Assembly: GCA_009914755.4 (NCBI GenBank)
Contig: CP086569.2
Location: 480,001 to 544,000 of the forward strand
Reading direction: 5' to 3'
Source of the DNA: the human T2T-CHM13v2.0 reference genome, Homo sapiens
Length of the DNA: 64,000 nucleotides
Shown: in pieces, positions 31,844 through 32,139 of the stretch
Layout: every line of letters begins with the position of its first letter
Position numbering within the stretch: the stretch's first letter is position 1
Notes under the pieces: generated by a model
What the model was told of the DNA's origin: nothing
Databases searched by the model: none
The model's input: only the letters and a program-made list of their open reading frames with translations
Translations under genes and position numbers: made by a program

Positions 31844-32139
31844 TTTTTTTTTTTTTAGATGGAGTTTTGCTCTTGTCGCCCAGGCTGGAGTATAATGGCA
31901 TGATCTCGACTCACTGCAACCTCCGCCTCCCGAGTTCAAGCGATTCTCCTGCCTCAGCCTCCCGAGTAGCTGGGATTACAGGTGCCCACCACCATGTCAA
32001 GATAATGTTTGTATTTTCAGTAGAGATGGGGTTTGACCATGTTGGCCAGGCTGGTCTCGAACTCCTGACCTCAGGTGATCCACCCGCCTTAGCCTCCCAA
32101 AGTGCTGGGATGACAGGCGTGAGCCCCTGCGCCCGGCCT
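31844..32139 (-). mobile_element. Alu (antisense) whose poly-T and first 45 nt supply the splice acceptor and entire coding part of SHOX exon 6b.
   Basis: tttttttttttttagATGGAGTTTTGCTCTTGTCGCCCAGGCTGGAGTATAATGGCATGAtctcgactcactgcaacctccgcctcccgagttcaagcgattctcctgcc...gagcccctgcgcccggcc. Confidence 0.95.
31859..31903 (+). CDS. SHOX: SHOX alternative terminal exon 6b coding part (SHOXb isoform). Encodes [14 protein letters not shown], with TGA at 31901-31903. The acceptor ttttttag|atg uses the poly-T of an antisense Alu.
   Basis: Exons 2-5 give 211 codons and these 14 codons add up to 225 aa, the known SHOXb length. The phase-0 end of exon 5 joins to ATG GAG TTT TGC directly after the AG at 31857-31858, which is preceded by a 14-nt T-run. 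I recall the peptide [14 protein letters not shown] as the SHOXb-specific tail. Confidence 0.85.

What the first reader, a model, noticed from the sequence alone, without database searches (positions are those of the whole stretch)
31844..32139. SHOXb terminal exon 6b is an exonized antisense Alu
The exon 6b acceptor is the AG that follows the 14-nt poly-T of an antisense Alu (ttttttttttttttag|ATGGAGTTTTGCTCTTGTCGCCCAGGCTGGAGTATAATGGCATGA). The whole SHOXb-specific peptide [14 protein letters not shown] plus its stop codon is translated from the reverse complement of the Alu right-arm end (consensus GAGACGGAGTCTCGCTCTGTCGCCCAGGCTGGAGTGCAGTGGCGCGATC). So the primate-specific isoform, which lacks the OAR domain, owes its C-terminus and part of its 3' UTR to a SINE insertion. 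This is a textbook Alu-exonization architecture sitting in a clinically important gene. Two nearly identical antisense Alus sit just upstream (31052-31348 and 31545-31843), which could compete as cryptic acceptors.
Basis: partly seen in the sequence, partly recalled or inferred. Interest (0 to 1): 0.65.

Follow-up and report, generated by a model that had tools for sequence, protein, structure and literature searches.

The report
SHOXb last exon is an Alu
The short SHOXb form of the human growth gene SHOX gets its last 14 amino acids, its stop codon and nearly all of its 3' UTR from primate-specific Alu repeats lying 12 kb past the gene's original end, which is a correct observation but an ordinary example of a well-described mechanism.

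Summary
The window is the human SHOX locus. Joining exon 5 (ends at 14220) to 31859 gives a 225-aa protein identical to RefSeq NP_006874.1 (SHOXb).

The interval 31857-32138 is a full-length antisense AluSx-type element, about 90% identical to consensus. Its 13-T tail (not 14) serves as the polypyrimidine tract. The acceptor AG is the standard "proximal AG, position 279" Alu site.

Four changes from the Alu consensus shape the exon:
- GAG>TAG at position -3.
- ACG>ATG at the first codon.
- A +1 T insertion that shifts the frame.
- CGA>TGA, which makes the stop.

The published 627-bp exon also takes in a second antisense Alu (AluJo), so about 88% of exon 6b is Alu. It is a terminal exon 12 kb beyond exon 6a. 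The closest known class is therefore "intergenic Alu exonisation creating new transcript ends" (Tajnik 2015), not cassette-exon exonisation.

Chimpanzee and orangutan isoforms keep the same frame and length. The tail itself diverges fast, so what matters is probably loss of the OAR domain, not the peptide.

The two upstream Alus are only 82-86% identical to this one and keep the weak GAG.

No paper I could search states the Alu origin, but both annotations are public. Interest is low.

The parts
14132..14220 (+). SHOX exon 5, the last exon shared by SHOXa and SHOXb. Its donor is CAACAG|GTAGCT and it ends in phase 0.
   Evidence: tblastn of SHOXa against the window; exon boundaries and conceptual splicing.
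17468..17713 (+). Coding part of exon 6a, the ancestral terminal exon that carries the OAR domain. A published exon length of 2433 bp puts its end near 19900. This exon is skipped in SHOXb.
   Evidence: (292-aa SHOXa). 292-294-aa orthologues are present in pig, bear, horse, camel and bats. Exon length from PMC3063249, Table 2.
31844..31856 (+). Run of 13 T. It is the complement of the Alu poly(A) tail and serves as the polypyrimidine tract of the exon 6b acceptor.
31857..31858 (+). Acceptor AG, equivalent to the 'proximal AG' 3' splice site (Alu position 279) of an antisense Alu. The preceding base at 31856 is T where the consensus has G (GAG>TAG).
   Evidence: Alignment to consensus. Site nomenclature from PMC13438754 and PMC7275561.
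31859..31903 (+). SHOXb-specific coding sequence, [14 protein letters not shown] plus a TGA stop. It contains ACG>ATG at 31860, a +T insertion at 31873 that shifts the frame relative to the Alu consensus, and CGA>TGA at 31901.
   Evidence: exact match to NP_006874.1.
31857..32138 (-). Full-length AluSx-type element, consensus positions 1-281, about 89.7% identical to consensus. 13 of its 30 differences are CpG transitions.
   Evidence: No target-site duplication was found.
31859..32485 (+). Extent of exon 6b if the published length of 627 bp is applied. It comprises the AluSx, a 39-bp spacer that includes the next Alu's T run, the AluJo, and about 34 bp of non-Alu sequence.
   Evidence: Length from PMC3063249, Table 2; composition. 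The 3' end was not verified here.
32178..32451 (-). Second antisense Alu (AluJo-type, 83.9% identical to consensus), lying inside the exon 6b 3' UTR. Its T run is at 32158-32172. It has the same orientation as the first Alu, so the mature UTR contains no inverted Alu pair.
32465..32470 (+). AAAAAG, the only poly(A)-signal-like hexamer in the exon, 15 nt before the published exon end and followed by T/GT-rich sequence. No AATAAA or ATTAAA occurs between 31859 and 34200.
   Evidence: Its role as a poly(A) signal is inferred, not shown.
31547..31843 (-). AluY (body 31563-31843, 93.6% identical to consensus) with a T16 tail. Its 5' end (GGCC) abuts the T13 of the exon 6b Alu directly, so the 40 nt upstream of the exon 6b polypyrimidine tract, where a branch point must lie, are AluY sequence. 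Its own tail junction reads T16-GAG|ACGGAG.
31068..31349 (-). AluSx, 90.1% identical to consensus, with a clean 13-nt target-site duplication CCAGGTGGTCT(C/T)T. Its tail junction reads ...TTTTTTTGAG|ACAG|AG.

Best explanation
Exon 6b of SHOX is an alternative terminal exon created by exonisation of Alu elements that sit in antisense orientation downstream of the gene's original last exon.

Proposed mechanism:
1. RNA polymerase reads past exon 6a.
2. The exon 5 donor (14220|GT) is joined to the AG at 31857-31858, immediately after the U13 tract, which is the complement of an AluSx poly(A) tail. This is the standard 'proximal AG / position 279' Alu acceptor.
3. Exon 6a, which encodes the OAR transactivation domain, is skipped.
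4. Translation continues for 14 codons through the reverse complement of the Alu right arm to a TGA.
5. The rest of the exon forms the 3' UTR: the remainder of the AluSx, a second antisense AluJo and a few tens of non-Alu bases.
6. Because the stop codon is in the last exon, the mRNA should escape nonsense-mediated decay (established rule). It yields a 225-aa protein with a homeodomain but no OAR domain.

Shown here:
- the Alu identity and orientation;
- the acceptor position;
- the reading frame and stop;
- exact identity of the spliced product with RefSeq SHOXb;
- the same frame and length in annotated chimpanzee and orangutan isoforms.

Inferred:
- The G>T change at -3 (GAG>TAG) was the step that made this Alu a usable acceptor.
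- The +1 T insertion and the CpG decay CGA>TGA set the 14-residue tail.
- hnRNP C/U2AF65 competition on the U tract limits use of the exon.
- The biological effect, if any, lies in removing the OAR domain, not in the Alu peptide.
For: - The conceptual splice 14220^31859 gives 225 aa, an exact match to NP_006874.1 SHOXb. The literature gives SHOXb as 225 aa, identical to SHOXa over the first 211 residues and lacking OAR (PMC3063249, PMC4971310).
- A full-length minus-strand AluSx lies at 31857-32138, by three routes: memory-typed consensus sequences, a window-derived consensus from 36 copies, and Rfam 7SL-type hits.
- The acceptor corresponds to Alu position 279, the proximal AG preferentially used in AluS exonisations (PMC13438754, PMC7275561).
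- Of 13 antisense-Alu tail junctions downstream of exon 5, ten read GAG, two read AAG-type, and only exon 6b reads TAG.
- The exon lies 11,958 bp beyond the annotated exon 6a end. This is inside the 41 bp-21.4 kb range reported for intergenic Alu exons and matches the 'terminal exon skipped' scenario (PMC4666398).
- Chimpanzee has [14 protein letters not shown] and orangutan has [14 protein letters not shown], in the same frame with the same stop.
- The tail differs at 4 of 14 residues between human and orangutan, against 2 of 211 in the shared part (Fisher p = 1.3e-4). The peptide sequence itself is therefore weakly constrained or unconstrained.
Against: - No transcript data were available here. 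The junction rests on identity with an annotated protein and on the literature.
- The 3' end of the exon is taken from a published length. No canonical poly(A) signal is present there, and the same is true at the published exon 6a end.
- No target-site duplication could be found for the exon 6b AluSx, the abutting AluY or the AluJo. The order of insertions is therefore inferred only from subfamily and adjacency.
- My crude acceptor matrix scores the AluY junction (T16-GAG) as high as exon 6b (10.7 against 10.2). The importance of the -3 base rests on general splice-site knowledge, not on a calibrated score.
- No orthologous DNA from other primates could be obtained for the site. The order and timing of the activating mutations are untested.
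- No function of the SHOXb protein has been demonstrated. PMC4971310 states that all functional studies used SHOXa.
Confidence: 0.9

Rival explanations
1. The Alu exon is real, but SHOXb is a neutral by-product. Read-through transcription past exon 6a meets an accidentally good Alu acceptor. The resulting OAR-less protein has no selected role, and the locus simply tolerates it.
For: - The tail evolves fast: 4 of 14 residues differ between human and orangutan, against 2 of 211 in the shared part.
- PMC4971310 reports no truncating mutations in exon 6b among patients, and says all functional work is on SHOXa.
- Macaque and orangutan annotations show other Alu-derived tails. This is what one would expect if any suitably mutated antisense Alu can be captured.
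- There is no canonical poly(A) signal.
Against: - The frame, the 14-codon length and the stop are retained in human, chimpanzee and orangutan.
- The isoform was cloned and detected independently of genome annotation (literature: PMC3063249, PMC4971310).
- A homeodomain protein without its transactivation domain is a plausible competitor of the full-length form, a hypothesis stated in both papers.
- None of these points is decisive.
Confidence: 0.4
2. The exon was activated by the later AluY insertion, not by point mutation in the AluSx. AluY landed in the AluSx tail. It replaced the upstream sequence, and hence the branch-point region, and left the present T13 tract. Exon 6b would then be younger than AluY, and its acceptor would be a composite of two Alus.
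For: - The AluY 5' end (GGCC, 31840-31843) abuts the T13 directly.
- AluY is the less diverged element, 93.6% against 89.7%.
- The only TnA branch-point-like motif within 60 nt upstream of the AG is GTGAG, with its A at 31827, 31 nt upstream and inside AluY.
Against: - No target-site duplication was detectable for AluY or the AluSx, so insertion into the tail is not proven.
- The -3 T, the frame shift and the stop all lie in the AluSx.
- The two routes are not mutually exclusive.
Confidence: 0.2
3. Exon 6b is a cDNA or annotation artefact, for example a chimeric clone or genomic priming in Alu-rich DNA, and no such mRNA is made.
For: The exon is about 88% Alu, has no canonical poly(A) signal, and has an A7 run 16 nt before its published end.
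Against: - The GT-AG junction is canonical, in phase, and sits at the standard Alu acceptor site.
- Independent NCBI models give the same tail in chimpanzee and orangutan.
- The isoform has been in RefSeq and UniProt and has been used in RT-PCR studies since 1997 (PMC3063249, PMC4971310).
Confidence: 0.03

Closest known systems
Intergenic Alu exonisation creating new terminal exons (Tajnik et al. 2015, NAR, PMC4666398), with examples such as CCNL1 and ANO6
   Same: - An antisense Alu lies kilobases downstream of the ancestral poly(A) site.
- Its U tract and AG serve as the 3' splice site.
- The ancestral terminal exon is skipped.
- Both the C-terminus and the 3' UTR are exchanged.
- The ancestral terminal exon is conserved in Alu-free mammals.
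   Different: - SHOX is not among the 107 knockdown-induced cases or the 10 annotated cases. It appears neither in the main text nor in the two supplementary files held here as text.
- That screen required a mouse orthologue, and SHOX has none (established knowledge).
- hnRNP C control of exon 6b is untested.
- The poly(A) site is unresolved.
- The replaced part is a defined functional domain (OAR) of a disease gene.
Classical intronic Alu exonisation (Sorek 2002; Lev-Maor et al. 2003, Science; Sorek et al. 2004, Mol Cell)
   Same: - Antisense orientation and use of the right arm.
- A poly-U tract followed by the proximal AG at Alu position 279, the site preferred in AluS elements.
- Activation by single-base changes next to the AG.
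   Different: - Those are internal cassette exons that also need an Alu-borne 5' splice site, and they usually introduce premature stops that trigger NMD.
- Exon 6b is terminal, needs a cleavage site instead, and its stop codon is NMD-immune.
Other OAR-less SHOX isoforms using exon 7-2 or 7-3 (Durand et al. 2011, PMC3063249)
   Same: Exon 5 is spliced past exon 6a to a downstream alternative terminal exon, giving a homeodomain protein without OAR.
   Different: Exon 7 lies in a conserved, non-Alu region about 4 kb from exon 6a and is restricted to embryonic and fetal tissues. Exon 6b is Alu-derived and lineage-specific.

Membership tests
Alu SINE (AluS subfamily) | A dimeric element of about 280 bp made of two 7SL-derived monomers joined by an A-rich linker | tested here: met
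   The alignment covers consensus positions 1-281 at 89.7% identity and 89.0% identity to a consensus built from 36 window copies. Rfam Metazoa_SRP matches the minus strand at 32021-32137 with E = 6e-13. The right monomer fell below the Rfam E-value cut-off but aligns to the consensus.
Alu SINE (AluS subfamily) | A 3' poly(A) tail | tested here: met
   T13 on the + strand at 31844-31856, directly adjoining Alu position 282.
Alu SINE (AluS subfamily) | Flanking target-site duplication | tested here: inconclusive
   No match of 7 nt or more between the flanks, with or without treating the AluY as a later insert. The method does recover a 13-nt duplication for the neighbouring 31068 copy.
Alu SINE (AluS subfamily) | Subfamily assignment | tested here: met
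   Bit scores are AluSx 375, AluY 316 and AluJo 277. A finer subfamily call (Sx, Sq, Sz...) needs Dfam or RepeatMasker.
Alu exonisation (3' splice site from an antisense Alu) | The Alu is antisense to the host transcript, with its poly-U tract followed by an AG at Alu position 279 or 275 | tested here: met
   SHOX is on the + strand and the Alu on the - strand. The first exon base, 31859, aligns to Alu position 279, the proximal AG (PMC13438754).
Alu exonisation (3' splice site from an antisense Alu) | The Alu segment is present in a mature mRNA | tested here: met
   The conceptual product is identical to NP_006874.1. This is indirect: no RNA reads were examined.
Alu exonisation (3' splice site from an antisense Alu) | A 5' splice site inside the Alu (internal cassette form) | tested here: not met
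   The exon is terminal. Its published length of 627 bp runs through the whole Alu and a second one. It is therefore not the cassette type.
Intergenic Alu exonisation / new terminal exon (PMC4666398) | The Alu lies downstream of the ancestral terminal exon and its poly(A) site | tested here: met
   11,958 bp beyond the annotated exon 6a end. The reported range is 41 bp-21.4 kb.
Intergenic Alu exonisation / new terminal exon (PMC4666398) | The ancestral terminal exon is conserved in species without Alus | tested here: met
   SHOXa-type proteins of 290-296 aa with OAR are present in pig, bear, horse, camel, bat, pangolin and squirrel.
Intergenic Alu exonisation / new terminal exon (PMC4666398) | [quoted passage not shown] | tested here: inconclusive
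   No AATAAA or ATTAAA between 31859 and 34200. The only candidate is AAAAAG at 32465, 15 nt before the published end.
Intergenic Alu exonisation / new terminal exon (PMC4666398) | Repression by hnRNP C competing with U2AF65 on the U tracts | not testable with these tools
   An uninterrupted U13 tract is present. The second (linker) U tract is interrupted at 32007 (T>G) and 32018 (T>C). Testing this needs iCLIP or knockdown data.

The most novel reading that the evidence does not exclude
OAR-less SHOX isoforms may have been generated repeatedly and independently by different antisense Alus in different catarrhine lineages:
- the exon 6b AluSx in great apes;
- the orthologue of human 18980-19229 in macaques;
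- possibly a further Alu in orangutan.

Under this reading they are retained because a truncated, homeodomain-only SHOX acts as a selected modulator of SHOXa dosage in limb growth.
Probability: 0.12. Interest if true: 0.45.

Novelty: new member of a known kind. Interest (0 to 1): 0.2.

Why it matters
The practical value is modest.

- **Variant interpretation.** It explains why exon 6b behaves unlike the rest of SHOX in diagnostics. The exon is young, repeat-derived and fast-evolving, and it encodes no conserved domain. Coding variants in it should carry little weight, and repeat-derived sequence in general is prone to cross-hybridisation.
- **miRNA predictions.** It probably explains the unusually high predicted miRNA-site density reported for exon 6b (PMC3063249, Table 2). 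That density is likely an effect of Alu content. Rfam's only miRNA-type matches in this region are the Alu-derived families mir-1268 and mir-3135.
- **Model organisms.** SHOXb cannot be modelled in non-primates.
- **Biology.** It adds a disease gene, and a case where a defined transactivation domain is swapped out, to the known class of intergenic Alu exonisation. It does not change how that class is understood.

Tried and rejected
1. **Orthologous DNA from other primates.** I used the look-up of encoding contigs.
   - The short isoforms of macaque, orangutan (two) and chimpanzee are not on record.
   - SHOXa-anchored loci from macaques (L001-L004) end at the equivalent of human ~27.3 kb. Those from capuchins (L005-L006) end at ~25.5 kb. 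All stop 4-6 kb short of exon 6b.
   - The age of the insertion and of the activating mutations could therefore not be tested.
2. **Protein search.** The search for homologous proteins with the 44-aa exon 5 + exon 6b peptide returned only exon-5 genomic ORFs from non-primate contigs. It gave no information on Alu tails.
3. **Acceptor scoring.** A home-made acceptor weight matrix is dominated by T-tract length. It does not separate exon 6b from the AluY junction, so I do not rely on it.
4. **Target-site duplications.** None were found for the exon 6b AluSx, the AluY or the AluJo.
5. **Poly(A) signal.** No canonical signal was found at either published exon end.
6. **Literature.** I searched 'SHOXb'+'Alu', 'SHOX'+'exon 6b'+'Alu', 'SHOX'+'exonization' and 'SHOX'+'Alu exons'.
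   - No paper in the library links the two.
   - The two main SHOX papers contain the word 'Alu' zero times.
   - Rao et al. 1997 is not in the library.
7. **Macaque tail as exon 6b orthologue.** I considered that the macaque tail ([13 protein letters not shown]...) might be the exon 6b orthologue in the unshifted frame. I rejected this because it maps to a different Alu 1.3 kb past the exon 6a stop.

Full report
**What the window is.** tblastn of the SHOXa protein against the window finds the SHOX coding exons on the + strand. After I fixed the splice boundaries by inspection, the exons are:
- exon 2 coding sequence: 4200-4476
- exon 3: 7920-8128
- exon 4: 13954-14011
- exon 5: 14132-14220
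- exon 6a coding sequence: 17468-17713

All have canonical AG/GT borders. Exons 2-5 total 633 nt, which is 211 codons in phase 0. Adding exon 6a gives 292 aa.

**The junction.** Adding 31859-31903 gives 225 aa ending in [14 protein letters not shown]. An exact-sequence look-up shows this 225-aa product is NP_006874.1, 'short stature homeobox protein isoform SHOXb [Homo sapiens]'. The 292-aa product is SHOXa. This matches the literature: SHOXb is 225 aa, identical to SHOXa for 211 residues, uses exon 6b, and lacks the OAR domain (PMC3063249, PMC4971310). No RNA data are available here.

**The observation.** The sequence is as quoted, with two small errors. The T run is 13 nt (31844-31856), not 14. 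The element ends at 32138, not 32139. Alu identity was checked three ways.
AluSx is best at 375 bits, against 316 for AluY and 277 for AluJo, with 89.7% identity. Of 30 differences, 13 are CpG transitions.
2. To avoid relying on memory, I built a majority consensus from 36 other Alu copies in this window. The exon 6b copy is 89.0% identical to it.
3. Rfam gives a 7SL-type match on the minus strand at 32021-32137 (E = 6e-13), and the neighbouring Alus give the same pattern.

The window holds 79 Alu-like intervals covering 16.1 of 64 kb.

**Anatomy of the exon.** The aligned start reads as follows:
- consensus: GAG ACGGAGTCTCGCTC-TGTCGCCCAGGCTGGAGTGCAGTGGCGCGATC
- genome: TAG|ATGGAGTTTTGCTCTTGTCGCCCAGGCTGGAGTATAATGGCATGATC

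From this:
- The acceptor AG (31857-31858) is the Alu's own 'proximal AG'. The first exon base is Alu position 279. This is one of the two sites mostly used in Alu exonisation and the one preferred in AluS elements (PMC13438754, PMC7275561).
- The base at -3 is T where the consensus has G.
- ACG>ATG at 31860 gives the first Met codon.
- A single T inserted at 31873 shifts the frame relative to the consensus.
- CGA>TGA at 31901, a CpG transition also seen in 12 of 36 other copies, gives the stop.
- Without the insertion, the frame would end after 11 codons at GTA TAA.

**Other Alu junctions.** I listed all antisense-Alu tail junctions downstream of exon 5. Ten read GAG, two read AAG-type, and only exon 6b has a pyrimidine at -3. 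Acceptors strongly avoid G at -3 (general splice-site knowledge). I therefore infer, but have not shown, that G>T at 31856 was the activating step.

**Extent and class.** Durand et al. give exon 6b as 627 bp (PMC3063249, Table 2). That puts its end at about 32485. The exon then also contains a second antisense Alu, AluJo at 32178-32451. Alu bodies make up 554 of 627 bp. Both Alus have the same orientation, so the mature UTR has no inverted Alu pair.

Exon 6b starts 11,958 bp after the published end of exon 6a, and it is terminal. This is the architecture Tajnik et al. 2015 describe as intergenic Alu exonisation:
- An antisense Alu lies 41 bp-21.4 kb beyond the genuine poly(A) site.
- The terminal exon is skipped.
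- A new 3' end forms.
- The coding end is sometimes replaced, as in CCNL1.
- Use of the exon is held in check by hnRNP C competing with U2AF65 on the U tracts.

SHOX is not mentioned in that paper or in its two supplementary files held here as text. Its evolutionary screen needed a mouse orthologue, which SHOX lacks (established knowledge).

The cleavage site is unresolved. There is no AATAAA or ATTAAA between 31859 and 34200. The only candidate is AAAAAG at 32465, 15 nt before the published end and followed by T/GT-rich sequence. The published exon 6a end also lacks a canonical signal.

**Surroundings.** Seven antisense Alus lie in a row between 31068 and 33434.
- The AluY (body 31563-31843, 93.6% identical to consensus) abuts the T13 with its 5' GGCC. 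The branch-point region of the exon 6b acceptor is therefore AluY sequence. The only TnA motif there is GTGAG, with its A at 31827, 31 nt upstream of the AG.
- This suggests AluY inserted into the AluSx tail. I found no target-site duplication for either element to prove it. The same script does recover a clean 13-nt duplication for the 31068 AluSx.
- Pairwise identities among the three Alus are 82-86%, so 'nearly identical' is wrong.
- Both upstream copies keep GAG. The 31068 copy also has the distal GAGACAG| site. They remain conceivable weak acceptors, but nothing here shows they are used.

**Other primates.** The 90%-identity cluster of SHOXb contains the following tails:
- chimpanzee: [14 protein letters not shown]
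- orangutan: [14 protein letters not shown], with the same shifted frame, length and stop, so presumably the same Alu
- orangutan, second model: [11 protein letters not shown]
- macaque model: [27 protein letters not shown]

The macaque tail maps to a different antisense Alu, 1.3 kb past the exon 6a stop. It is orthologous to human 18980-19229, inside the human exon 6a 3' UTR. These XP_ entries are computational models.

Between human and orangutan the tail differs at 4 of 14 residues, against 2 of 211 in the shared part (p = 1.3e-4). The peptide itself is therefore weakly constrained or unconstrained. If SHOXb matters, it matters through loss of the OAR domain. The proposal that it modulates SHOXa is the literature's own untested hypothesis.

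I could not obtain orthologous DNA at the exon 6b site from any other primate.

**Verdict.** The observation and its interpretation are both correct, with small corrections. Mechanistically this is a clean case of a known class, in a gene whose isoform and repeats are both already in public annotation. Five literature searches found no paper that states the Alu origin of exon 6b. I therefore file it as a new member of a known kind, not as already published, while noting that any genome browser shows the overlap. Interest is low.

The only more novel thread is possible repeated Alu capture producing OAR-less SHOX isoforms in different catarrhines. That rests on predicted models and is unproven.

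Noticed in passing
L002 26527-26608; L001 about 26567-26650; human window 18980-19229: A predicted macaque SHOX isoform (XP_011733315.1, 240 aa) ends in an Alu-derived tail, [13 protein letters not shown].... It is read from a different antisense Alu, using that Alu's GAG|ACAGAG proximal acceptor. The orthologous Alu in human lies inside the exon 6a 3' UTR. 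This may be an independent Alu capture in Old World monkeys, but it rests on a computational model only.
   Followed up: partly
P0004 (orangutan XP_063577522.1, 222 aa): A second orangutan isoform ends in [11 protein letters not shown], the unshifted Alu frame. It comes either from another Alu or from another haplotype of the same locus. The DNA was not retrievable.
   Followed up: no
window 20259-21402: A minisatellite of 14 copies of an 82-bp unit at 97% match. The unit is cut from the middle of an antisense Alu (about positions 101-184). It lies just past the published end of exon 6a.
   Followed up: partly
window 28915-29608 and 29797-30230: Two further Alu-derived tandem arrays. One has 5.2 copies of a 132-bp unit resembling an AluJ left arm. 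The other has 5.5 copies of a 79-bp unit made of an Alu 3' end, its A tail and about 20 nt of unique sequence.
   Followed up: no
window 33130-33434: An antisense AluSx with a T14 tract and AAG|ATGGAGTTTCAC... It resembles the exon 6b acceptor, and its phase-0 frame stays open for 98 codons. It scored highest with my crude acceptor matrix. It is not part of any isoform examined here.
   Followed up: no
window 32004-32027 and 31214-31239: The exon 6b AluSx and the AluSx at 31068-31349 share two rare linker changes, 32007 T>G and 32018 T>C, seen in 3 and 2 of 36 window copies. Both changes interrupt the second U tract. They indicate either a common source subfamily or local gene conversion.
   Followed up: partly
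window 19840-19950 and 32425-32560: Neither published terminal-exon end (exon 6a at about 19900, exon 6b at about 32485) has an AATAAA or ATTAAA within the usual distance. The annotated ends may not be the true cleavage sites.
   Followed up: partly
window 31164-31215, 31659-31710, 31953-32004, 32273-32324, 31583-31642, 32197-32256: Sub-threshold Rfam matches to mir-1268 and mir-3135 fall on every Alu in this region. These 'miRNA families' are Alu sequence. This probably accounts for the high predicted miRNA-site density reported for exon 6b.
   Followed up: no
P0007 (bonobo, 218 aa): A bonobo SHOX model ends in ...MPFQQVARFFFL. This resembles read-through from exon 5 into intron 5, where the human sequence GTAGCTCACTTTTTCTTCCTCTGA would give VAHFFFL*. 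It is not an alternative exon.
   Followed up: no
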